From an uncultured Rickettsiales bacterium (GTDB lineage: Bacteria > Pseudomonadota > Alphaproteobacteria > Rs-D84), in contig URBZ01000002.1 of the NCBI GenBank assembly GCA_900546225.1, positions 78,411 to 142,410 of the forward strand: 64,000 bases of DNA, written 5' to 3'. Position 1 is the first letter of the stretch; each line of letters starts with the position of its first letter. Of the stretch, positions 44,022 through 52,903 are shown piece by piece. The translations under genes and the position numbers were made by a program. Under the pieces are notes generated by a model. That model did not search any database. It was not told where the DNA came from and worked only from the letters and a program-made list of their open reading frames with translations.

Positions 44022-44915
44022 GTTATAGGCTGCTTCTCAAATCGTCTTTGATATAATCATTTTTTCGTTCGCTTTTCGCAACTTACAGTTATAGGTTGCT
44101 TCTCAAATCGTCTTTGATATAATGTGAATTACCAGAAATAGGCAATTTAACCTGTTATAGGTTGCTTCTCAAATCGTCTTTGATATAATTTATATGCTTA
44201 GCATGTGCGAGCGTCTACGGTTATAGGTTGCTTCTCAAATCGTCTTTGATATAATCCAGCATTCGCAACGGTACAAATCAACCCGGTTATAGGTTGCTTC
44301 TCAAATCGTCTTTGATATAATCGAAATATGTAGAACAGAGCACTCGAAGGAGTTATAGGTTGCTTCTCAAATCGTCTTTGATATAATGGCACATCTTTGT
44401 CAACCTGCGCCTGCAAAGTTATAGGTTGCTTCTCAAATCGTCTTTGATATAATGTCAACAGTCGCAATAACATTTCCCATCGTGTTATAGGTTGCTTCTC
44501 AAATCGTCTTTGATATAATAAAAAGGATTAAGCTATGATACTCAGAGATGTTATAGGTTGCTTCTCAAATCGTCTTTGATATAATGTCAACAGTCGCAAT
44601 AACATTTCCCATCGTGTTATAGGTTGCTTCTCAAATCGTCTTTGATATAATAACACAATCCCGGTGTGGTATGTAAACCTGGTTATAGGTTGCTTCTCAA
44701 ATCGTCTTTGATATAATCGAATTCAAAGACCTTGATTGGGCGCATTTGTTATAGGTTGCTTCTCAAATCGTCTTTGATATAATATTCGGGGTTGTACCAC
44801 GTAACACAATTCCGTTATAGGTTGCTTCTCAAATCGTCTTTGATATAATAAACCATTCGAACACATTTACACGTGCAATGTTATAGGTTGCTTCTCAAAT
44901 CGTCTTTGATATAAT
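44022..44915 (+). CRISPR. CRISPR array, 14 x 36-bp repeats (GTTATAGGTTGCTTCTCAAATCGTCTTTGATATAAT), 13 spacers of 30 nt, period 66
   Basis: Repeat starts at 44022, 44088, 44154, 44220, 44286, 44352, 44418, 44484, 44550, 44616, 44682, 44748, 44814, 44880. The first repeat is degenerate (GGC for GGT). Spacers 7 and 9 are identical. Each repeat ends in TTTGATATAAT (extended -10). Confidence 0.95.
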
Positions 44916-44922
44916 AGACACA

Positions 44923-44957
44923 CAAAAACCCACTGATAAAAGTGGGTTTTTGTGTAT
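44923..44957. terminator. bidirectional hairpin terminator between the array and cas2 (CACAAAAACCCACT-GATAAA-AGTGGGTTTTTGTG)
   Basis: 14-bp inverted repeat seen directly in the sequence; symmetric, so functional on both strands. Confidence 0.5.
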
Positions 44958-45018
44958 TATATTCAACAAAAAACGTACGTATTGCCATCGGCTGATGACG
45001 AATCGTCTTGTTTTTTTA

Positions 45019-45351
45019 TCAAAACATCAGTAATTGTTGCGAACTGATTTTTTCTGCCGTGGGCGCATCGCCAACCAAAAACAGCATATCTGCGAATTGT
45101 TTTTCCGTGACGGTTAAAACCCTGATTGAACCAGATGGCGGCGTCAAATGTCGCAATCGTTGTAAATGCTTCTCCATTCCGGCCAACCCCTTGACTATTC
45201 GGGAATATACCGAGAATTGCATCATGTAATACCCGTCGTTCAACAAGTCGTTTCTGAAACGCGTAGCATATTTCCGTTCACGCTTTGTGCCAACGGGCAA
45301 ATCAAAGAATACTATTATACGCATAAATTTTTCCTGACGGTTGTACAACAT
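45019..45351 (-). CDS. cas2: CRISPR-associated endoribonuclease Cas2
   Basis: 110 aa; MLYNRQEKFMRIIVFFDLPV...RFRNDLLNDGYYMMQFSVY. Confidence 0.85.
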   Translation of the reverse strand: MLYNRQEKFMRIIVFFDLPVGTKRERKYATRFRNDLLNDGYYMMQFSVYSRIVKGLAGMEKHLQRLRHLTPPSGSIRVLTVTEKQFADMLFLVGDAPTAEKISSQQLLMF

Positions 45352-45352
45352 T

Positions 45353-46267
45353 TTAGTTCTGGGTATTTACTATTTCTGGTGCTGATTTTATAGATGGCAA
45401 TTTCAATGCATCTAAGTTTTTATTACAAAAACATGTTGCCACGGATTCTGCATACAGCGGCATGGCATTCAGCACCGAATGTCGAACACCACCAAAGGCG
45501 CAACTGTGCAATAATACCGACACCAATCGTTGTTTGATATTTGGGGTTAAATGCGCACAACCATCAAAATCAAATGACAGCACAATAAAGTCCACAAATG
45601 GCCGCCACGGTTCAATCATGTCGTCGACCATGCAAAAATTATCAAGTTTGTTACAATGATGTACGCCATAAAAAGGTAACAGACCCGCACCAACCGCGCT
45701 GCGTGCGACACACCCGCGTAATATGGCATAGCCGTAATTCAATGCATGATTTCGTACATCGGCATCATCACTGCGGTTGAAATTTTCCCACAGGGCCGAC
45801 CAATAGATACGAGCCGCAAGCCCCTCTATATTTTTAGTGTCACCAGACGCGACATTTTCAGCCAAAATTTCCAAACGCTTATATGCGGGATTATCACACA
45901 ACTTTAAGATTGCCGATTGATTTCGAATTTTTTGTTTAACAATTTCTTGCCACATACGTTTACGGAATGGCAACGACGATGCAATTTGTGCATGCGCAAT
46001 TTCAGTATATCTGGAATTATTATGAAACGGAAAGAATGCACCATTCGGCAGGTGTGACGCATCACAAGAAAACGCAACCACGCCGTTTTCAGCCAATTCA
46101 GACATCAGCGCAGATGTAATTTGAATCTGGGGATTTTCCAGTATGACAACCGCGATATCTTCTAATGGGATATCTTGGACACCACCGGTGTCACCAGTCC
46201 AGTGCAGTTGCTTGTGCCGAACACAAATCCGACATGGATTTGTCAGGGTCAGAATACGCCAAGACAT
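45353..46267 (-). CDS. cas1: CRISPR-associated endonuclease Cas1 (type II)
   Basis: 304 aa; typical Cas1 beta-sandwich and alpha-helical domain motifs (HALNYGYAILRG...); 1-nt gap to cas2. Confidence 0.9.
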   Translation of the reverse strand: MSWRILTLTNPCRICVRHKQLHWTGDTGGVQDIPLEDIAVVILENPQIQITSALMSELAENGVVAFSCDASHLPNGAFFPFHNNSRYTEIAHAQIASSLPFRKRMWQEIVKQKIRNQSAILKLCDNPAYKRLEILAENVASGDTKNIEGLAARIYWSALWENFNRSDDADVRNHALNYGYAILRGCVARSAVGAGLLPFYGVHHCNKLDNFCMVDDMIEPWRPFVDFIVLSFDFDGCAHLTPNIKQRLVSVLLHSCAFGGVRHSVLNAMPLYAESVATCFCNKNLDALKLPSIKSAPEIVNTQN

Positions 46268-46315
46268 TTAATTGTCCTTTGTTTGTATCCTTTCCCACAC
46301 AGGTGATATAGTGCA

Positions 46316-49264
46316 CTATTTTCGTTTTACAACCGGCGTGCGCTGTTCTGGCAACTTTATCGGTTTTGGTGTACCCAGTAATGACACAGCAAACTTTTCA
46401 ATGTTTGTGCATTTACCAACAGATTTTTTCACAACCTGTGTCCGATTGTTATCTTGGCGATACAATATGAAGTTTGTGCCATGATCCATTTTGGTGATAT
46501 ATCCTTCGTACACACCATCTGCAGCGGTCAGGCGAACATAATCGTCCTTGTGTAACGAACAGACAAATTCACCATCTGGGACTTTGAAGACATCGTCATC
46601 TTTCCCCTTGGTATCGGTAACAAAAATCGGAACACACACGTATTTGCCATGCGCATTGCGCCAAATATCAAATCGAAACATATCGCCACGAACAGCGCGT
46701 CCATGTCGAATTTCCAGTGATCCTTTGTCGCGATTTTTATTCAGACCACGTTTTGAACGATATGATTTTGGATCTGCGTAAATTGTTTCATCGTGCGCCG
46801 CACCCGTGGCGTTACAACGTGGCGGGCGCGATACAATAATATCGTTCAAGCAGGAGATAACATCAGTACGAAAACCGTTCCATGGTTCTTGGATAGAAGT
46901 TTTCAGTGCGGTATACCATGCCTGACCATATTTTTGAATCAGCGCATATTTGTTTTCAAATCGCGCCGACAGCGTTGACAGGTACTTTACCATACCCTGT
47001 GTCGCACATGCGATTACAATCGCGTCTTGGGCATGATGTTTGTCTGATTCATCACGATTTTTGACCAAGCCCCACTGGTGACGCAGATAGTCCGTCAAAG
47101 AACCAGTACGCACCAATACTCGCTTTTTTATATCATCAGATGCAGGCCAATCGATACCATATTCCAAATATTCCGTGGCGAACTTGGCAATAGTGGCATT
47201 ATCATTCGCGTTACGTTCAATAAAACCGTTTTGTTCGGCATCACACTTGGGTAAATCGGTGTTCGTCAATTTTTTGAACTTTGCAGGATTATGCAAGGCA
47301 CGCGCACGCACCGTCATGTCATAAAATTGTTCAGATGTCAGAAACTCATATGGCGTTTTGCTGCCCTTGCGTTGATTACATTCGTGACAGACCAAAACCC
47401 TGTTGCTCTGCGAATTATCAAGGGAACGCGAATATGGCAAAATATGGTCTATTTCATACGCCCCCCAATCACCAGCAGCCAATACCGCATTACAGTATGG
47501 GCACTTGCCACCCTGCTCCATATACAATTTATACTTAAAGTAATTTTTGCCGTACTCTTTGCGGGCTTCTTCGGTTGCCTGACGATTGCGTTCCTGTTCG
47601 CGATTCATGCGCGCAATATCATCGGGCGAATTTTTTAATTCACGACCGATTTCCAAATGGATTCTGTCGGGCGCGCCAAACCGATAAACCATCGCATTAT
47701 AAACCTTGCGTAATTGGACAAGGGTTCGCTTGGCAACTGGTGATGTAATACGATTACCCAGCAAAGTCCAATTTATCTGGTGCAGATGCCCCGCTGGCGC
47801 GCCGTCGTCGCGATTTATATACGACACGTTTTGTGCCCTGAAATCTTTGTTCAGGCCAGATGCAACCGCTTCGTTATACTTTTTGCCATTCTCCATTTCA
47901 GGAATAATTTTTTGCAATGCAGAGATAGACAACTTGATAAATTCTGAACTGGTGATTTGTGCGATTGCGGCGGCATGTTCTGGCAATATTTCAGACACAG
48001 CGCGTTCAATATTTTCCGGCGTTTTCTGGGTTGCGATGACATCAAATATCTTGTCCATCGTGTCTATATCGGTTGTGTATTTGGCCAGTTTATGCCAACC
48101 CGTAAATGCATAGAATTTCTGACATTCGATTTTCTTGATATCAGGTTCAATCCACACCTTGTTTTCTTTGTCATATATACGGGAATAGTTCAACGTTTTG
48201 AACTGTTTATCATCGTCCCATTTCAACAGGTTACGCACGTCGGCATATTTCAGCCCCGTTTTCTTTTTATATAACTCATCTATAACTGTCTGGGTTTCAG
48301 CAACCGTAAAATCATTTTGGCGACACTTGGTCAATGCGACAAACTTTTGCGCCGTTGGCGATTCCTTGGGCGCGACCGGTTCATTCGTGAACGGACATTT
48401 GCCACGCATTTCCGCAATAGATTTGGCCAATGGCGATGCAGATTCATTAAATTTACGTTGGCGACACGCAACAGCCCACCATTTTTCAAACGCGTCCGAA
48501 AAATCATTACCAAAGTCACGTTGCGCGTGCAAAATCATTTCTGCTTCGCGCTTGATTTCCGAACGCGGAATAGAACTTGAATACGTTGATTGCACTTCTG
48601 TTTTTTGCGTGCCGTCTTTTGCGATTTTGACAACGCTTTTTCTGCCGTTGCGCATCTGAGCGTGTTCGGTGGCATACAGCATTTGGCACATTGTTTGATC
48701 CGGATTTTCACGTTGCAGTTTGGCCAAATTATCTTTGATTGCACCAATGGCTTTTAATTCCTCTTTGGACTCTGCGTCGTCCGCCTTTTCTGATTTTGCA
48801 CCAGCTGGCACAGGGTATGTTATATCATCGTACCCGCGATGCTTTGCCAAATGGTACAAGATGCGTCCTGTTTCACGCGGCGTCAGTTTTCGCGTAAAAG
48901 CGTCAACCGCACGCAGTTGCCAGATGTTTATATCCGTATCACGGTTCAGATAAAAATTATTTTGTCCGTCAGATTTTGGTTCTGGAATATCAATCAGATG
49001 GTATTGACGTAAAATATCGCGAATTTCGCGCATACGCTGTGCACGATGTCTGATTCTGCGACGCGCACCACGCGCCGTGCGACGATCGGCGGCATTTTGT
49101 GCCTGATCAAAACAGCGCACACCCGCACCCACTATTTCACCCACGGGGCGGCTGTCGGGCGCGGACGCATCTGTGGTTGATGCCGTTGGATCTGACATTC
49201 TAACAGCGGCCCAACCGATACTGGCGATACCCAAATCGAATCCAAAAATCAAAGACATGTGCAT
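46316..49264 (-). CDS. cas9: Cas9, compact type II-C
   Basis: 982 aa. RuvC-I IFGFDLGIASIGWA. Arg-rich bridge helix. HNH YEIDHILPYSRSLDNSQSNRVLVCHECNQRKG. RuvC-III HHAQDA. No csn2 or cas4 nearby, so subtype II-C. Confidence 0.95.
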   Translation of the reverse strand: MHMSLIFGFDLGIASIGWAAVRMSDPTASTTDASAPDSRPVGEIVGAGVRCFDQAQNAADRRTARGARRRIRHRAQRMREIRDILRQYHLIDIPEPKSDGQNNFYLNRDTDINIWQLRAVDAFTRKLTPRETGRILYHLAKHRGYDDITYPVPAGAKSEKADDAESKEELKAIGAIKDNLAKLQRENPDQTMCQMLYATEHAQMRNGRKSVVKIAKDGTQKTEVQSTYSSSIPRSEIKREAEMILHAQRDFGNDFSDAFEKWWAVACRQRKFNESASPLAKSIAEMRGKCPFTNEPVAPKESPTAQKFVALTKCRQNDFTVAETQTVIDELYKKKTGLKYADVRNLLKWDDDKQFKTLNYSRIYDKENKVWIEPDIKKIECQKFYAFTGWHKLAKYTTDIDTMDKIFDVIATQKTPENIERAVSEILPEHAAAIAQITSSEFIKLSISALQKIIPEMENGKKYNEAVASGLNKDFRAQNVSYINRDDGAPAGHLHQINWTLLGNRITSPVAKRTLVQLRKVYNAMVYRFGAPDRIHLEIGRELKNSPDDIARMNREQERNRQATEEARKEYGKNYFKYKLYMEQGGKCPYCNAVLAAGDWGAYEIDHILPYSRSLDNSQSNRVLVCHECNQRKGSKTPYEFLTSEQFYDMTVRARALHNPAKFKKLTNTDLPKCDAEQNGFIERNANDNATIAKFATEYLEYGIDWPASDDIKKRVLVRTGSLTDYLRHQWGLVKNRDESDKHHAQDAIVIACATQGMVKYLSTLSARFENKYALIQKYGQAWYTALKTSIQEPWNGFRTDVISCLNDIIVSRPPRCNATGAAHDETIYADPKSYRSKRGLNKNRDKGSLEIRHGRAVRGDMFRFDIWRNAHGKYVCVPIFVTDTKGKDDDVFKVPDGEFVCSLHKDDYVRLTAADGVYEGYITKMDHGTNFILYRQDNNRTQVVKKSVGKCTNIEKFAVSLLGTPKPIKLPEQRTPVVKRK

Positions 49265-49380
49265 TCCTCTTTGTTTTTACCCTTGTATTATGAATATAGA
49301 CCCAACAAGCACAAATTACAACCCGACACCATAAAAACAAAAAACTTGACGTCAGCAATAATCTATCATAGCATAGTGAC

Positions 49381-49503
49381 GTAAGAAATCTTTATTGACG
49401 GACGATTTGAGAAGCAACCGTTTATATAATAAAGAATATTTTCTGTGGGGTTTTACGATTACGTATCCCCTGCGCCGTCCCCCAACGGGGGACGGCTTTT
49501 ATT
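49381..49503 (+). ncRNA. tracrRNA (divergent from cas9)
   Basis: GACGATTTGAGAAGCAACC (49401-49419) is perfectly complementary to repeat positions 7-25. Upstream TTGACG-17-TAGCAT promoter (49346-49374). 3' terminator CCGTCCCCCAACGGGGGACGG + TTTTATTTAT (49475-49505). Confidence 0.7.
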
Positions 49504-49515
49504 TATGGCAAACAC

Positions 49516-49548
49516 ATCAAAAAACACCCGCGGGCGGGTGTTTTTGTT
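49516..49548. terminator. terminator AAAAACACCCGCGGGCGGGTGTTTTTGTTTT (3' of the 49549 gene)
   Basis: GC hairpin flanked by A/T runs. Confidence 0.5.
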
Positions 49549-51324
49549 TTATCGGTTGATCATTGTGGGGATTACGATTTCGTCGTTGTAATAGCCCAAG
49601 AATCGTTTTCCGGTGGCGCAGTATATTTTCTGCAACGAATCCTTGTATTCGCGCACGGCCGTGACCCAACGGTTTTCAATATCGGATTGCGCCCCTTGGT
49701 ATCCGGCGTATGCACCCAACGCACCACCAGCACCCGCGCCAATCAATGTGCCTTTTAATCTGGCCTTGTTACCAAAGTCAATAATACCACCATCGGACGC
49801 ATCGACCATTATTGGGTAGAAGTCGCTGATGCTGTATTCGCCGTCCAAAGCATATCCAGCACCACTGGACGTGCGGCCCAAGATTGTATGCCCTGATAAA
49901 TCTGTTTTCAATTTGGCCCAATCAGAACGCTTGTAACCAAATGCCTTGTCATTGACGTCGGCAATCATCGCAGGAATCTGTGTACCGGTGGCAATGGTGG
50001 CACTGGAAATCTTGGCATACATCGCACTGTCAGGATTTGCACCATTTTTCATTTCGTTTTTTTCGGTCAGATAAAACTGTTTTGCTGAATCAGCTTTGAC
50101 CTTTTCGAACCCTTCCTTGGCCACAGCTTCAATGTCTTTGTTCGGGTATGCCTCTAGTTTAATATTCAACAGGGTTTCTTGTTTACAACCAGTATCGTCT
50201 GAGTTACATACTAATGTTGTTTCGTCGCCAGTGTTGTAATAAGCGTTTTTACCAGACAGTGCCGTACTCTTTCTGATAACACCCCACAGGCACTTGGAAT
50301 TTTTATTCTGTGGCTCGGCGGGTTTATCGTCCGTTGTGGCACTGGCGGACGCGGACGCAGTCGCGCTGGCTGAACCGGTATTATTGGACGTATCTGACTT
50401 TTCCTGATTTGATTTTGGTTTTTCGGTGATGCTGGGTATTTTGCAATCCTCGATACGCAGGACAGATTCCCCACTGGCGGCAATGTTGCCAATCATACTG
50501 CCCGCGGCGGCGTTGACACCAGTTGACAGAATTGTGTCACCTGCAACCTTGCCAGAATAGGCATTGCCCGCCATCAGTGCTGCGCCGCTGAGTGCGCCGA
50601 TGATTGTGCCGGTGGTTTTATGTTTGCCACCGCCCAATATACTGTCACTGCCGATTTCGTTTTTGCCGGCGGCATTGCCCGCCAGACCACCAATCACCGT
50701 GCCCGCCGCGATGCGCAGGCCGGCGTTTTGTTTCTGTTCCGCATTTAATACCTGAACCACGTCCGCACGGGTCGGTTCGTTGTCCGCGGGGAATGTAACC
50801 TGTGCCGCGTCGGTGGTGTATGAAAATTCAGGAAAGTCAGAGATATTACATTTGACCGCATCGCCAGCCGCCAAATTTGCGCGCGCCAAAACGGCATCAG
50901 AACCGTCCAGTCCCATTTGATAGCCACGCAATTCGACAACCGCGACACACGTTGATGCGCCACCCGCACCATTGCCAACCGTCGGCGAATCCCATGCAAA
51001 TTCGCCATTTGGATATACCATTGCGCAAGAATCCAGTGTTGCAATACTGACACGCGAATCCGTTTCGCCACGTGATAACTTTTGTGCCAATTCACGATTT
51101 GCCACCCGCACCGGCAGGTTTGTTTCCGCGTCCGCCGACTGGGTCGTGGCAGTTGGTGTGGCGGCGGCCGCTGCGGCCGCTGCAATCTGTTCACGTTGGG
51201 CATTTACCTGTTGATAGCCGGCTGCATAACTGCGCGATGCGTTGCCAACACGCACTGCGGCGGCGGCGTGGCCGCCAGATAATAGAGCATAGATAATAGA
51301 TAATAGATAATAGTTATATTTCAT
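49549..51324 (-). CDS. secreted Gly/Ala-rich (glycine-zipper-like) hypothetical protein
   Basis: 591 aa. N-terminal signal-like MKYNYYLLSIIYALLSGGHAAAA; these first codons are encoded by the left inverted repeat of the adjacent cassette. Many GxxxG repeats. Confidence 0.45.
   Translation of the reverse strand: MKYNYYLLSIIYALLSGGHAAAAVRVGNASRSYAAGYQQVNAQREQIAAAAAAAATPTATTQSADAETNLPVRVANRELAQKLSRGETDSRVSIATLDSCAMVYPNGEFAWDSPTVGNGAGGASTCVAVVELRGYQMGLDGSDAVLARANLAAGDAVKCNISDFPEFSYTTDAAQVTFPADNEPTRADVVQVLNAEQKQNAGLRIAAGTVIGGLAGNAAGKNEIGSDSILGGGKHKTTGTIIGALSGAALMAGNAYSGKVAGDTILSTGVNAAAGSMIGNIAASGESVLRIEDCKIPSITEKPKSNQEKSDTSNNTGSASATASASASATTDDKPAEPQNKNSKCLWGVIRKSTALSGKNAYYNTGDETTLVCNSDDTGCKQETLLNIKLEAYPNKDIEAVAKEGFEKVKADSAKQFYLTEKNEMKNGANPDSAMYAKISSATIATGTQIPAMIADVNDKAFGYKRSDWAKLKTDLSGHTILGRTSSGAGYALDGEYSISDFYPIMVDASDGGIIDFGNKARLKGTLIGAGAGGALGAYAGYQGAQSDIENRWVTAVREYKDSLQKIYCATGKRFLGYYNDEIVIPTMINR
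51278..51324. repeat. left inverted repeat (GATAATAGAGCATAGATAATAGATAATAGATAATAG) of the four-helix-bundle cassette, with AGATAAT tandem units
   Basis: Its reverse complement TATCTATGCTCTATTATC recurs at 51684-51701. Confidence 0.6.
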
Positions 51325-51683
51325 TTTTTCTTTACCTGCTTTTTTGTCTTGATGGTGGCCGTCAATAATTTCATTATCTCTTCACAGTCAGAATTTATAC
51401 TCTCATACCATTCTGTTGGAATTAAACCAACATTCTTTAACAAATCTAACCAATACAACGTTTCTGAACACTCCTTGTACGCAATATAAACTTTGGCTAA
51501 AAAATCATCTGCCGATATTGCGCATTTGGCCTCTGATAGATTTGCGCCGATGCTTGTTCCCGACCGCAACAACTGACGAGATAAAATTATTTCGTTTTTC
51601 TCTCCTGTTAAATATTTACACAACTTATAGATACGAACAGCGAAATCCTTACTCTTTTGTACCGTTACGCTATTTGCCGTCAT
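51321..51683 (-). CDS. four-helix-bundle protein (23S rRNA intervening-sequence protein family, PF05635-like)
   Basis: 120 aa; LLRSGTSIGANLSEA....KECSETLYWLDLL matches the family signature (RSxxSIxANIAEG...KExxETxYWL). Confidence 0.75.
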   Translation of the reverse strand: MTANSVTVQKSKDFAVRIYKLCKYLTGEKNEIILSRQLLRSGTSIGANLSEAKCAISADDFLAKVYIAYKECSETLYWLDLLKNVGLIPTEWYESINSDCEEIMKLLTATIKTKKQVKKK

Positions 51684-51720
51684 ATCTATGCTCTATTATC
51701 TATGCTCTATGCTCTAAAAC
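51681..51720. repeat. right inverted repeat (CATATCTATGCTCTATTATCTATGCTCTATGCTCT), with TATGCTC tandem units
   Basis: Shares the 18-bp core TATCTATGCTCTATTATC in inverse orientation with 51278-51324. Contains the start codon of the 4HB gene and the stop codon of the OMP gene. Confidence 0.6.
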
Positions 51721-52793
51721 TGCAAACGCGCGCGGACACCCAAATCAACCATGCCCAGACGGCCACTTTCGTACCAGTTGGTATAGTGGAACACGCTGTC
51801 GTATGGTGCTTGGTATTCACCGCCCGCATCGTCGCCCAACCATTCGGTTTGGGAAACAACGATACTGCCCGATGTTTTAACCTTGCCTAAATTGGCATAG
51901 CGAACAAAGAAATCCAATTTAATGCCGCCGTCCAGTTCGGTGGTTAAACCACCCTCGACCGAAAAGGCCAACTGTTCTGTTGTGCCGCCGTTGTGATATG
52001 CATATACGTCCGAGATACCCGTCAGGTCACCCGCACCCGCCGCCGATGGATCCATCACGTCATAAAACGTGCCATCGTACACGACATAGTCGGCGATTGT
52101 GTTCAACGAAATACCAACACCAGCCCCGATGTACGGACGCAACGCGCCCCCCGCCAGATAGCCAGTATAAGAATCGATATTATAATACACGTTCAACATC
52201 GTCGTGTTTGCGGTGATTGCGCCACCACTGACCTTGCCCGTGATATAGCCACCATTACCATCGGCGGATTCAACCGTGTCTGGGTAACTGAGGCCCGAAT
52301 AACGCAAGAACGAGAAATCAATACGCACATCGTTATTGATTGCCGCGCCAACCGATACCTGTAATGGAATCACGGTATCAGACGAAAAGTTTGCATCTTT
52401 GAATGCGCCGGGGACGACATACGATTTATCTTCGCCGGCATAGTCGGCGGACATGCTGCCCGTGATTGATGCAGAATACCCCGCGGAAACACCGATGTAC
52501 AGACCACTGTCCGCCAAACGGTCATAGTCCGCTGGCTGGTAATACTGGCGTCCTGCATTTGTTGCAGACGACCCGACACGTGGTAATGCGCCCGTGACAC
52601 GGGTATTGGCCGGCAAACTGGTACTGGTCGTGACCGACGTTTGATTTGGCAATGCGATAACCTGACCCTGGGCGGTGGTTGCCTGATATGTTGTTGGATA
52701 CGCCGCCTGATACACAGGATACGCGGCACGCGCGTCAAATGATACGCCCGCCAAAACACCCGTTAAAACGGCAAAAACAGCAGATTTTTTCAT
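51714..52793 (-). CDS. outer-membrane beta-barrel protein
   Basis: Start at MKKSAVFAVLTGVLAGVSFDARA (signal peptide, ATG 52793). Alternating amphipathic strands. C-terminal ...RARLQF (terminal Phe). Confidence 0.6.
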   Translation of the reverse strand: MKKSAVFAVLTGVLAGVSFDARAAYPVYQAAYPTTYQATTAQGQVIALPNQTSVTTSTSLPANTRVTGALPRVGSSATNAGRQYYQPADYDRLADSGLYIGVSAGYSASITGSMSADYAGEDKSYVVPGAFKDANFSSDTVIPLQVSVGAAINNDVRIDFSFLRYSGLSYPDTVESADGNGGYITGKVSGGAITANTTMLNVYYNIDSYTGYLAGGALRPYIGAGVGISLNTIADYVVYDGTFYDVMDPSAAGAGDLTGISDVYAYHNGGTTEQLAFSVEGGLTTELDGGIKLDFFVRYANLGKVKTSGSIVVSQTEWLGDDAGGEYQAPYDSVFHYTNWYESGRLGMVDLGVRARLQF

Positions 52794-52903
52794 GTAAAAT
52801 CCATTTCCTTTTGCGTACATTATATCATAAAAATCCCTAAGAGTACAAAACAAAAATCCCGCATTACGCGGGATTTAGTCCAATATGTTTTGTTGTTTTA
52901 TGT

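What the first reader, a model, noticed from the sequence alone, without database searches (positions are those of the whole stretch)
51278..51720. Inverted-repeat-flanked cassette encoding a four-helix-bundle (23S-IVS-type) protein, wedged between two genes
A 120-aa PF05635-like gene is bracketed by an 18-bp inverted repeat (TATCTATGCTCTATTATC) embedded in short tandem repeats (AGATAAT x3 on the left, TATGCTC x3 on the right). The left IR supplies the start codon and signal-peptide codons of the 591-aa secreted protein. The right IR contains the stop codon of the OMP gene. These four-helix-bundle genes are known from rRNA intervening sequences and small multi-copy elements. Here it looks like a mini mobile or structured insertion that has become part of neighbouring reading frames. 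The tandem repeats could mediate phase variation.
Basis: partly seen in the sequence, partly recalled or inferred. Interest (0 to 1): 0.55.

Follow-up and report, generated by a model that had tools for sequence, protein, structure and literature searches.

The report
Strain-variable four-helix-bundle gene cassette with heptamer arms
A small gene for a ring-forming four-helix-bundle protein, flanked by two mirror-image runs of 7-base repeats, is present in some strains and absent in others between two surface-protein genes, and the same gene-plus-repeat layout recurs across many bacterial phyla, hinting at what this orphan protein family binds.

Summary
A 120-aa PF05635/TIGR02436 gene (51321-51683, minus strand) is bracketed by a perfect 19-bp inverted repeat. 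Both arms are arrays of two heptamers (AGATAAT and AGAGCAT), five units upstream and six downstream.

It is a discrete cassette. Strains of the same species, and of a sister species, either carry it or have a 33-nt Shine-Dalgarno spacer in its place, exactly between the OMP stop codon and the start codon of a hypervariable secreted-protein gene. The downstream arm forms codons 4-16 of that gene's signal peptide. The 4HB stop overlaps the next start (ATGA).

The protein is under strong purifying selection. No contig shows inversion or a repeat-number frameshift, so phase variation is not supported.

The layout is family-wide. In 80 diverse genomes, 62 relatives have period-7 arrays on both sides. 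The arrays point inward, share the core A-R-T-K-N-N-N, and most often have five units. PF05635 proteins are reported as homopentamers.

My best reading is an IVS-type cassette whose arrays are cis sites for the pentamer and can also pair into an IVS-like stem. The mechanism is inferred, not shown. I found no paper or Rfam family describing this link.

The parts
51684..51715 (-). Upstream (mRNA 5') arm. It holds five in-phase heptamers, AGAG-CAT AGAG-CAT AGAT-AAT AGAG-CAT AGAT. It fills the whole 30-nt gap between the OMP stop and the 4HB ATG, and the ATG directly follows the fifth core.
   Evidence: L006 and L009 have four units.
51321..51683 (-). 120-aa four-helix-bundle protein gene (PF05635 / TIGR02436). 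It carries the RxxxSxxxNxxE motif (RSGTSIGANLSE).
   Evidence: Closest solved chain is 2RLD, E=4.9e-30. dN/dS is 0.05-0.12.
51277..51315 (-). Downstream (mRNA 3') arm. Read on the + strand it is six in-phase heptamers, AGAT-AAT AGAG-CAT AGAT-AAT AGAT-AAT AGAT-AAT AGTT. On the mRNA it is the complement and encodes codons 4-16 (NYYLLSIIYALLS) of the 591-aa protein's signal peptide.
51321..51324 (-). ATGA overlap of the 4HB stop codon with the start codon of the 591-aa gene, a translational-coupling arrangement. There is no separate Shine-Dalgarno spacer in the filled allele.
   Evidence: Empty alleles have the spacer ttttttataatgccagagtaggggggggagaga instead.
49549..51324 (-). 591-aa secreted protein gene with no Pfam or NCBIfam family. 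It is hypervariable within the species.
51714..52793 (-). Upstream outer-membrane-type protein gene (359 aa as called in conspecific contigs). Its stop codon TAG at 51714-51716 is the left boundary of the cassette.
49520..49545 (.). Bidirectional terminator-like hairpin just after the 591-aa gene. Another lies at 52854-52876(-) before the OMP gene and none in between. This suggests that OMP, 4HB and the 591-aa gene form one transcription unit.

Best explanation
SHOWN.
This is a discrete, strain-variable cassette of the 23S-IVS-protein type. It is a functional gene for a PF05635 four-helix-bundle protein, bracketed by two inward-pointing arrays of heptamers (AGAKMAT; family consensus A-R-T-K-N-N-N), five upstream and six downstream.

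It occupies exactly the interval between the stop codon of an OMP gene and the start codon of a hypervariable secreted-protein gene. Cassette-free strains have a 33-nt Shine-Dalgarno spacer there. The downstream array is translated as the hydrophobic core of the neighbour's signal peptide. The neighbour's ATG overlaps the 4HB stop (ATGA). The same gene-plus-inverted-heptamer-array architecture surrounds relatives of this protein in many phyla.

INFERRED MECHANISM.
- The three genes are co-transcribed.
- In the filled allele the secreted-protein gene has lost its own ribosome-binding site and is translated by coupling to the 4HB gene.
- The heptamer arrays are the cassette's cis elements. Each array of about five A-R-T-K cores is a binding platform for one 4HB homopentamer, one core per subunit. 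I propose this occurs on single-stranded nucleic acid, most likely its own mRNA, where the fifth core abuts the start codon. That would give TRAP-like autoregulation.
- The complementary downstream array can pair with the upstream one (19 perfect or about 35 imperfect bp). This closes the ORF in an IVS-like stem that would hide both start regions and be an RNase III substrate.
- The arrays also delimit the unit that is gained, lost or exchanged between strains.
For: Anatomy.

Presence/absence at identical boundaries in two species.

The signal-peptide type is linked to cassette state. All 12 filled contigs have SIIYALLSGG and all 8 empty ones have SMLYALCS.

The cassette sits at the same site in at least 6 lineages whose 591-aa homologues are only 38-59% identical. 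In each lineage both arms carry the same changed heptamers (AGGGCAC/AAGGCAC, AAGGCAT, AAGCAAT, AAGGCAA).

Purifying selection on the protein: dN/dS is 0.05-0.12.

Within the species the cassette is 98.1-100% identical in nucleotides, while the flanking U32 peptidase gene is 94-96% and the OMP gene 89.6-98.9%. This suggests recent spread across strain backgrounds. Between the two species, 4HB divergence (83%) matches the housekeeping gene (81%).

Family-wide evidence:
- 62 of 80 diverse loci have period-7/14/21 arrays on both sides. 154 of 170 tandem repeats within 120 nt of the ORF have those periods. That is about 8 per kb, against 0.34 per kb elsewhere.
- The aligned consensus is A 146/150, R 132/150, T 116/150 and K 150/150. 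Its information content is 5.31 bits, against 3.80 +/- 0.14 in the shuffled null.
- Orientation is conserved: 64 of 75 upstream arrays are purine-rich on the sense strand.
- The in-phase core run length peaks sharply at five. In the 5' flank the counts are 8, 28 and 6 loci for 4, 5 and 6 cores. In the 3' flank they are 12, 21 and 7.
- Eight of nine IMG/VR loci show the same layout.

PF05635 relatives are reported as homopentamers: Xcc0516 as cited in PMC4990558 and PMC3936711, and Avd in bioRxiv 10.1101/2023.10.23.563531. PDB entry 2RLD has five chains.

The predicted minimum-energy fold of the transcript pairs the two arms (-117.9 kcal/mol, z = -2.86). The Coxiella IVS precedent is a 428-444-nt element with a 28-bp terminal stem around an S23p ORF, cut by RNase III (PMC4990558). 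There is no terminator inside the three-gene unit.
Against: - No binding, processing or expression data exist. Pentamer stoichiometry for this protein is assumed from relatives.
- The downstream array has six cores here, and many loci have 3, 4 or 6.
- In only 16 of 55 loci does the array abut the start codon. In the rest it lies 12-100 nt upstream.
- Mismatches between arms show no G-U wobble bias: 31 sense-compatible against 36 antisense-compatible, p=0.63. RNA pairing is therefore not independently supported.
- An RNA-binding protein would see only one of the two arrays on the mRNA. The need for the inverted partner is not explained by binding alone.
- Empty alleles keep a heptamer array in the signal peptide together with an ancestral-looking spacer. 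The order of events (array first or cassette first) is unresolved.
- No target-site duplication and no second copy in the window. Transposition as such is not shown.
- The 80 loci are one subfamily (47-64% identical to the query), not all of PF05635.
Confidence: 0.5

Rival explanations
1. Pure RNA element. The arrays matter only because they pair. The cassette is an IVS transplanted into an mRNA. Its stem is cut by RNase III, which separates the OMP, 4HB and 591-aa messages or down-regulates the 591-aa gene. The protein does not recognise the repeats.
For: - Arm complementarity is maintained through sequence change in at least 6 lineages.
- The predicted fold pairs the arms.
- The size (about 440 nt) and layout match the Coxiella IVS, which RNase III cuts.
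- ORF-less heptamer hairpins exist in other genomes.
Against: - A stem does not need tandem heptamers, a conserved A-R-T-K core across phyla, a fixed polarity or a copy-number mode of five.
- There is no G-U wobble excess. The commonest mismatch is G/T at core position 4, which breaks pairing.
- Cleavage in the stem would cut the 591-aa mRNA inside its signal-peptide codons.
Confidence: 0.25
2. The arms are DNA-level ends of a small mobile element, that is terminal inverted repeats with multiple protein-binding sites. The element is moved by the 4HB protein or by a host or trans enzyme. ORF-less heptamer hairpins would be its MITE-like derivatives.
For: - Presence/absence polymorphism within two species.
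- The cassette is much less diverse than its flanks.
- A relative with 66% identity and nearly the same heptamers sits at a different locus (L103).
- The inward-pointing symmetry of the arrays is what double-stranded DNA recognition predicts.
- ORF-less (+,-) array pairs occur.
- A different selfish ORF (GIY-YIG) sits at the same junction in L143.
Against: - No target-site duplication at the filled/empty junction.
- The right-hand array is present in empty alleles too.
- There is no nuclease or recombinase domain in the 120-aa protein.
- The cassette sits at the same site in lineages that diverged to 38-59% identity in the neighbouring gene.
- There is only one copy in the 64 kb.
Confidence: 0.15
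3. Contingency locus. Slipped-strand changes in heptamer number switch the 591-aa surface protein on and off, or tune 4HB expression.
For: - One AGAGCAT unit is missing from the non-coding arm in L006 and L009.
- The array lies in the 5' coding region of a hypervariable surface protein.
Against: - None of about 30 filled or empty contigs has a frame-shifting unit number in the coding arm. Differences there are in-frame unit-type swaps.
- The two apparently N-truncated proteins are explained otherwise. One is a TAT>TAG point mutation and the other a gene-calling choice.
- The arrays have only 5-6 interrupted units.
Confidence: 0.05
4. Invertible DNA switch (inverton), or an accessory of a nearby system such as a DGR Avd or the adjacent type II-C CRISPR-Cas.
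For: - Inverted repeats flank a roughly 400-bp segment.
- PF05635 genes have been reported in cas loci (PMC3936711) and resemble Avd (PMC10053308).
- cas9 lies 2 kb away.
Against: - The 4HB gene is co-oriented with both neighbours in all of about 31 filled contigs from several species.
- There is no recombinase, reverse transcriptase or TR/VR in the neighbourhood.
- In other strains the cas9 position is occupied by Mrr, GmrSD, DUF6998 or DUF6119 genes while the cassette is unchanged.
Confidence: 0.03

Closest known systems
ORF-containing intervening sequences (IVS) of 23S rRNA (Leptospira, Coxiella burnetii S23p; PMC4990558)
   Same: - The ORF belongs to the same protein family (PF05635).
- The element size is similar, about 440 nt here against 428-444 nt.
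- The ORF is enclosed by terminal inverted repeats that fold into a long stem.
- The ORF lacks a good ribosome-binding site.
   Different: - It is not in an rRNA gene. It sits between two protein-coding genes in an mRNA.
- One arm is translated as a signal peptide.
- The ORF is under strong purifying selection here, whereas it is decaying in Coxiella.
- The arms are tandem heptamer arrays. I could not check whether this is true of rRNA IVSs.
- RNase III cleavage is untested here.
Avd, the accessory protein of diversity-generating retroelements
   Same: - It is a homologous four-helix-bundle fold.
- Avd is a positively charged homopentamer that binds structured RNA next to its own gene (bioRxiv 10.1101/2023.10.23.563531).
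   Different: - There is no reverse transcriptase, template repeat or variable repeat nearby.
- The flanking elements here are heptamer arrays, not an Avd-binding stem-loop and spacer RNA.
Heptanucleotide tandem repeats of unknown function (TAACTGA arrays of Beggiatoaceae, Cyanobacteria and Bacteroidetes, PMC4679880; cyanobacterial STRR, from my own knowledge)
   Same: - Short arrays of 2-6 heptamers lie in intergenic DNA, often ending within a few nt of a start codon.
- TAACTGA is the complement of AGTTATC, which fits the A-R-T-K core.
- The cyanobacterial 4HB loci L070 and L079 carry this very heptamer.
   Different: - Those arrays were described as direct repeats scattered genome-wide.
- That paper makes no link to PF05635 genes or to inverted pairs. 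It has no occurrence of S23, IVS or four-helix.
TRAP (trp RNA-binding attenuation protein) and Hfq distal-face binding
   Same: This is the working model only: a ring-shaped homo-oligomer that binds as many short tandem RNA repeats as it has subunits and blocks an adjacent start codon.
   Different: - The fold is unrelated.
- Binding by the 4HB protein is not demonstrated.
- This is a functional analogy, not a claim of family membership.
MITEs and small transposons with subterminal repeated binding sites
   Same: - Inverted ends are built from repeated short units.
- ORF-containing and ORF-less versions exist.
- There is presence/absence polymorphism.
   Different: - There is no transposase or target-site duplication.
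- One end pre-exists in empty alleles.
- The cassette sits at the same site in several deeply diverged lineages.

Membership tests
PF05635 / TIGR02436 four helix bundle protein (23S rRNA IVS protein, S23p) | Profile score above the curated cut-off | tested here: met
   Pfam 95.1 bits against 33.8. TIGR02436 108.6 bits against 24.
PF05635 / TIGR02436 four helix bundle protein (23S rRNA IVS protein, S23p) | Conserved motif GxxRxxxSxxxNxxE (PMC3936711) | tested here: met
   RSGTSIGANLSE is present. R40, S44, N48 and E51 fall in invariant or near-invariant columns of A1. The leading G is Q in this subfamily.
PF05635 / TIGR02436 four helix bundle protein (23S rRNA IVS protein, S23p) | Homopentameric toroid | not testable with these tools
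   Only inferred from relatives: Xcc0516, Avd, and 2RLD with five chains.
23S rRNA intervening sequence (IVS) | Inserted in a 23S rRNA helix (25 or 45) | tested here: not met
   There is no rRNA in the window. The flanks are protein-coding genes.
23S rRNA intervening sequence (IVS) | Terminal inverted repeats forming a stem that encloses the element | tested here: met
   19 perfect or 35 imperfect bp. The arms are paired in the predicted minimum-energy fold.
23S rRNA intervening sequence (IVS) | Excision by RNase III | not testable with these tools
   Needs RNA end mapping or an in vitro assay.
DGR accessory protein Avd | Adjacent reverse transcriptase with a template/variable repeat pair | tested here: not met
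   No RT family among neighbours within +/-5 kb in 10 conspecific contigs or in the window.
Invertible promoter / inverton | Both orientations of the IR-flanked segment present in populations, with a site-specific recombinase | tested here: not met
   About 31 filled contigs all have the same orientation. No recombinase is nearby.
Simple-sequence-repeat contingency locus | Unit-number variation that shifts the reading frame or promoter spacing among close relatives | tested here: not met
   The coding arm is invariant in unit number in about 30 contigs. There is one 7-nt indel in the non-coding arm, in 2 of 12 filled contigs.
MITE / TIR transposon | Terminal inverted repeats plus target-site duplication plus multiple genomic copies | tested here: inconclusive
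   TIR-like arms and filled/empty alleles are present. There is no target-site duplication, and the window holds no other copy. The whole genome was not searchable.
Heptanucleotide repeat arrays (TAACTGA/STRR type) | Tandem 7-nt units in short arrays next to start codons | tested here: met
   Arrays of 5 and 6 units. The upstream array ends at the 4HB ATG.

The most novel reading that the evidence does not exclude
Standalone PF05635 proteins are sequence-specific, ring-shaped binders of tandem A-R-T-K-N-N-N heptamers, five repeats per pentamer. The gene together with its two inward-facing arrays is the autonomous form of a pan-bacterial family of hairpin elements. Its ORF-less derivatives and scattered arrays would account for the long-unexplained heptanucleotide repeats (STRR, TAACTGA) and for the origin of ORF-bearing rRNA intervening sequences. 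In this gut alphaproteobacterium, one such element has been kept as a balanced presence/absence polymorphism that rewires translation of a hypervariable surface protein.
Probability: 0.3. Interest if true: 0.85.

Novelty: new variant of a known kind. Interest (0 to 1): 0.7.

Why it matters
PF05635 proteins ("four helix bundle protein", "S23p", Avd-like) are annotated in very many bacterial genomes. Their only known role is as the DGR accessory factor. Most copies are standalone orphans.

Heptanucleotide tandem repeats have likewise been catalogued for decades without a partner protein.

This follow-up links the two. It finds a conserved 4-nt core, a fixed polarity and a preferred copy number of five, equal to the subunit number reported for these proteins. 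That turns two open questions into one directly testable binding hypothesis.

It also shows that an IVS-type element can live inside an mRNA operon. There it segregates as a filled/empty polymorphism in human-gut bacteria, donates or shares sequence with a neighbour's signal peptide, and replaces that neighbour's ribosome-binding site. This is a concrete case of a selfish-looking cassette becoming part of host gene expression.

Tried and rejected
- G-U wobble asymmetry between arms, as a signature of RNA-level selection: none found (31 against 36, p=0.63).
- Inverted orientation of the cassette: none in any contig.
- Heptamer-number frameshifts in the coding arm: none. The N-truncated proteins P0228 and P0152 turned out to be a TAT>TAG nonsense mutation and a gene-calling choice.
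- Other copies of the IR or of any A-R-W-K array in the 64-kb window: none.
- Rfam at gathering threshold on the window and on 20 related loci, and at E<=5 on the cassette: only chance hits.
- Literature: seven searches and several full-text look-ups found no paper linking PF05635/S23p/IVS proteins to heptamer repeats. Ralph & McClelland 1993 is not held.
- Generality of the signal-peptide exaptation: in the 80 diverse loci the downstream array is usually not part of a downstream ORF. Neighbours are unrelated housekeeping or restriction-type genes. The exaptation is specific to this alphaproteobacterial clade.
- CRISPR or DGR association: rejected, because the neighbourhood is variable and there is no RT.
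Whole-genome copy number of the cassette could not be determined.
Full report
**1. The observation**

- A 120-codon ORF on the minus strand (51321-51683) matches PF05635 (E=3.5e-27, 95 bits against a 33.8 cut-off). It also matches TIGR02436 "four helix bundle protein" (108.6 bits against 24).
- Its closest solved relative is the uncharacterised chain 2RLD (E=4.9e-30, five chains in the entry).
- A perfect 19-nt inverted repeat flanks it (51277-51295 and 51683-51701). In registers shifted by 7 or 14 nt the repeat reaches 33-35 nt at 86-88%.
- The 18-mer occurs 5 times with up to 3 mismatches, all within the two arms, against 0.01 expected.
- Both arms are period-7 arrays. They are the only such arrays in the 64 kb.

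On the coding strand the layout is:
- The OMP gene ends ...TTT TAG.
- The AG of that stop begins five in-phase heptamers: AGAG-CAT AGAG-CAT AGAT-AAT AGAG-CAT AGAT.
- These are followed directly by the 4HB ATG.
- The 4HB stop overlaps the next start (ATGA).
- Codons 4-16 of the 591-aa gene (NYYLLSIIYALLS) are the reverse complement of six heptamers.

The start codon of the 591-aa gene is outside the repeat, and only two bases of the OMP stop codon are inside it.

**2. Context**

- Terminator-like hairpins lie before the OMP gene (52854-52876) and after the 591-aa gene (49520-49545), with none in between. I infer a three-gene transcript.
- The 591-aa and OMP proteins have no Pfam or NCBIfam family.
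- Downstream lies a type II-C CRISPR-Cas locus: cas9 at 46316-49264, then cas1, cas2 and an array at 44022-44916.
- In other strains that position holds Mrr, GmrSD, DUF6998 or DUF6119 genes while the cassette is unchanged. The CRISPR proximity is therefore incidental.
- The organism is an uncultured human-gut alphaproteobacterium. Source names include "Alphaproteobacteria bacterium" and "Pseudomonadota bacterium", and samples come from Hadza and other gut metagenomes.

**3. It is a discrete cassette, present or absent within species**

A metagenome scan with an alignment of 591-aa homologues returned 43 loci.

| Group | Filled (cassette present) | Empty (cassette absent) |
|---|---|---|
| Window species (OMP protein 96-99% identical) | L001-L010, L110, L121 | L111-L116, L153, L154 |
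| Sister species (4HB 86% aa identity) | L011-L016, L117, L122 | L118-L120 |

- Empty alleles have, in place of the cassette, the 33-nt spacer ttttttataatgccagagtaggggggggagaga. It carries a strong Shine-Dalgarno sequence directly before the ATG of the 591-aa gene.
- The boundaries are exact: after the OMP TAG on one side and before the 591-aa ATG on the other.
- More distant relatives (31-50% identity, L124-L152) lack the cassette. They have ordinary signal peptides without heptamers, and several have a similar gagagaATGAA spacer. OMP-591 adjacency with an SD spacer is therefore ancestral.

Empty alleles of both species still encode a heptamer-built signal peptide (MKFNYYLLSMLYALCS = CTATTAT x2, CTATGCT x3). 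Filled alleles have MK(Y/S)(N/H)YYLLSIIYALLSGG. The signal-peptide type tracked cassette state in 12 of 12 filled and 8 of 8 empty conspecific contigs. The polymorphic haplotype thus runs from the OMP stop to about the end of the signal peptide. Whether the array or the cassette came first is unresolved.

**4. Age, selection and spread**

- The cassette sits at the same site in at least six lineages whose 591-aa homologues are only 38-59% identical (window, L011, L017, L106, L108, L109, L023).
- In each lineage the heptamers have changed and both arms carry the same variants. For example, L017 has AGATAACAGGGCACAAGGCACAG and CTGTGCCTTGTGCCCTTTTATCT.
- The 4HB gene is under strong purifying selection. 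dN/dS is 0.05-0.12 and synonymous sites are near saturation.
- Within the species the cassette is 98.1-100% identical in nucleotides. The flanking U32 peptidase gene is 94-96% and the OMP gene 89.6-98.9%.
- Between the two species the 4HB gene (83%) is as diverged as the housekeeping gene (81%).

I infer an old element that has recently been homogenised or spread among strain backgrounds. The filled and empty haplotypes both predate the species split or have been exchanged. The 591-aa protein itself is highly polymorphic, with over 100 distinct 90% clusters at 86-100% identity.

**5. Phase variation and inversion**

- One AGAGCAT unit is missing from the non-coding arm in L006 and L009, giving four cores instead of five.
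- No contig has a frame-shifting unit number in the coding arm. Differences there are in-frame swaps of unit type.
- Two proteins that seemed to start at an internal Met are explained by a TAT>TAG point mutation and by gene calling.
- All of about 31 filled contigs have the gene in the same orientation as both neighbours.

Neither slipped-strand switching nor DNA inversion is supported.

**6. The architecture is family-wide**

A scan of species-representative genomes with an alignment of close homologues gave 80 loci. They come from Bacteroidota, Clostridia, Negativicutes, Verrucomicrobia, Acidobacteria, Spirochaetes, Cyanobacteria, Neisseriaceae, Alphaproteobacteria and others, and include isolates such as Segatella copri, Bacteroides oleiciplenus and Pontibacter.

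- Most ORFs are flanked by inverted arrays of tandem heptamers that differ from locus to locus (AGATTAC, AGTTAGG, AATGCGT, AATTAGG, GTGTAAA, AATGTTG and more).
- 62 of 80 loci have period-7/14/21 arrays on both sides.
- 154 of 170 tandem repeats within 120 nt of the ORF have those periods. That is about 8 per kb, against 0.34 per kb in the rest of the loci.
- Aligned by rotation, 150 array consensus units give A (146), A/G (132), T (116), G/T (150 of 150), then three variable positions.
- Total information is 5.31 bits, against 3.80 +/- 0.14 when bases are shuffled within units and fitted the same way.
- The A-R-T-K strand is the sense strand upstream (64 of 75 arrays) and the antisense strand downstream (57 of 75). 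The arrays therefore point inward.
- The longest in-phase run of cores peaks at exactly five.

| In-phase cores | 5' flank (loci) | 3' flank (loci) |
|---|---|---|
| 4 | 8 | 12 |
| 5 | 28 | 21 |
| 6 | 6 | 7 |

- Background arrays in these loci show the same bump at five.
- Eight of nine IMG/VR loci show the same layout.
- Near several loci there are ORF-less pairs, an A-R-T-K array followed by a 7-110-nt loop and then the inverse array.
- The window's AGAKMAT units fit the core, with A instead of T at position 3. The upstream arm has five cores in the window species, L011, L017 and L103.

**7. Mechanism**

PF05635 relatives are reported as homopentameric, positively charged rings: Xcc0516, cited in PMC4990558 and PMC3936711, and Avd, in bioRxiv 10.1101/2023.10.23.563531, where it contacts structured RNA. 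Three features point to a protein partner rather than mere pairing:
- a conserved 4-nt core with a 3-nt variable spacer;
- a fixed polarity;
- a modal copy number equal to the subunit number.

My preferred model is that each array is a platform for one pentamer on single-stranded nucleic acid. The most likely target is the cassette's own mRNA, where the fifth core abuts the start codon in 16 of 55 loci, including this one.

The complementary array can close the ORF into a stem. It is paired in the predicted fold, at -117.9 kcal/mol with z = -2.86. This matches the RNase III-processed stem of the 428-444-nt Coxiella IVS.

In this locus the filled allele has replaced the SD of the 591-aa gene by ATGA coupling. 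Expression of the surface protein would therefore depend on 4HB translation and on whatever binds or pairs the arms.

All of this is inference. The evidence against it is:
- Mismatches between arms show no G-U bias (31 against 36).
- A sequence-specific RNA binder would see only one arm.
- The inverted symmetry would equally suit DNA-level end recognition of a mobile unit. For that rival, however, there is no target-site duplication, no catalytic domain and no second copy.

**8. Comparison with what is known**

- The closest known entity is the ORF-bearing 23S rRNA IVS. It shares the protein family, size and enclosing stem. This element is not in rRNA, so it fails that defining feature.
- It is not a DGR, because there is no RT or TR/VR.
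- Heptamer arrays near start codons are known as unexplained repeats (TAACTGA, PMC4679880). TAACTGA is the complement of AGTTATC, which fits the core. The cyanobacterial 4HB loci L070 and L079 carry it. That paper does not mention this protein family.
- Only nine papers in the searchable library name the family at all, and none mentions heptamers.
- No Rfam family matches.

**9. Verdict**

- The finding is real. It is a member of the IVS-protein cassette kind in an unusual setting: inside an mRNA operon, polymorphic within species, and sharing an arm with a signal peptide.
- The broader link uncovered here, between PF05635 genes and inward-pointing, about five-unit A-R-T-K heptamer arrays, appears undescribed and gives a testable function for an orphan family.
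- I rate it a new variant of a known kind, with interest 0.7.

Noticed in passing
window 44022-49264: Complete type II-C-like CRISPR-Cas locus. The array has about 13 repeats of a 36-nt unit (GTTATAGGTTGCTTCTCAAATCGTCTTTGATATAAT). It is followed by cas2 (45019-45351), cas1 (45353-46267) and a 982-aa cas9 (46316-49264), all on the minus strand.
   Followed up: partly
L001-L010, downstream of the 591-aa gene (equivalent to window ~46000-49500): The slot after the 591-aa gene is a variable defence island. Different strains carry cas9, an Mrr-type restriction enzyme, GmrSD, DUF6998 or DUF6119 genes there, next to a conserved 153-aa gene.
   Followed up: no
window 49549-51324 and P0121-P0229: The 591-aa secreted protein is hypervariable within the species. 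There are over 100 distinct 90%-identity clusters at 86-100% identity, with lengths of 566-600 aa. An in-frame low-complexity insert (SASATASASASAT...) is present in some alleles only. The protein has a conserved C-terminal glycine-zipper-like segment and no known family.
   Followed up: partly
L143:1770-2500: A distant relative (31% identical 591-aa homologue) carries a different small selfish-looking ORF at the same OMP-591 junction. It is a GIY-YIG-like protein (YYVYILFNKPDGTLYIGITNDLYRRIGEHK...). It is surrounded by several copies of a roughly 35-nt repeat, GTCATTGCGAGCGTTCGCAGAATGCGAAGCAATCT. The downstream signal peptide there is built from CATTATT x4.
   Followed up: partly
L024, L025, L037, L039, L063, L064, L075, L081, L090, L093 (coordinates): These loci contain ORF-less hairpins made of an A-R-T-K heptamer array, a 7-110-nt loop and the inverse array. 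They usually use the same heptamer as the nearby 4HB cassette. They may be non-autonomous derivatives.
   Followed up: partly
L025, L033, L064 (gene starting 21-46 nt after the 4HB stop): Three unrelated genomes have the 4HB cassette directly upstream of a roughly 980-aa protein beginning (M)KFKFKIQQYQTDAV. This looks like a helicase or restriction-type enzyme. It may be a recurrent association or a preferred insertion site.
   Followed up: no
L153:1473-1475: One empty-allele strain has a TAT>TAG nonsense mutation at codon 5 of the 591-aa gene. An in-frame ATG inside a CTATGCT heptamer remains as a possible alternative start.
   Followed up: yes
L103-L105 (GCA_009783145.1): A relative with 66% identity and almost the same heptamers (AGAGCAT/AGATAAC; five cores on each side) sits at a different locus. 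It lies between a 218-aa and a roughly 266-aa gene, and the latter's N-terminus again reads through the downstream array as a hydrophobic segment.
   Followed up: partly
P0121-P0240 N-termini: Two protein clusters have a hybrid signal peptide, MKFNYYLLSMLYALLSGGHADAAI. The first half is the empty-allele type and the second half the filled-allele type. This suggests recombination inside the heptamer array.
   Followed up: no
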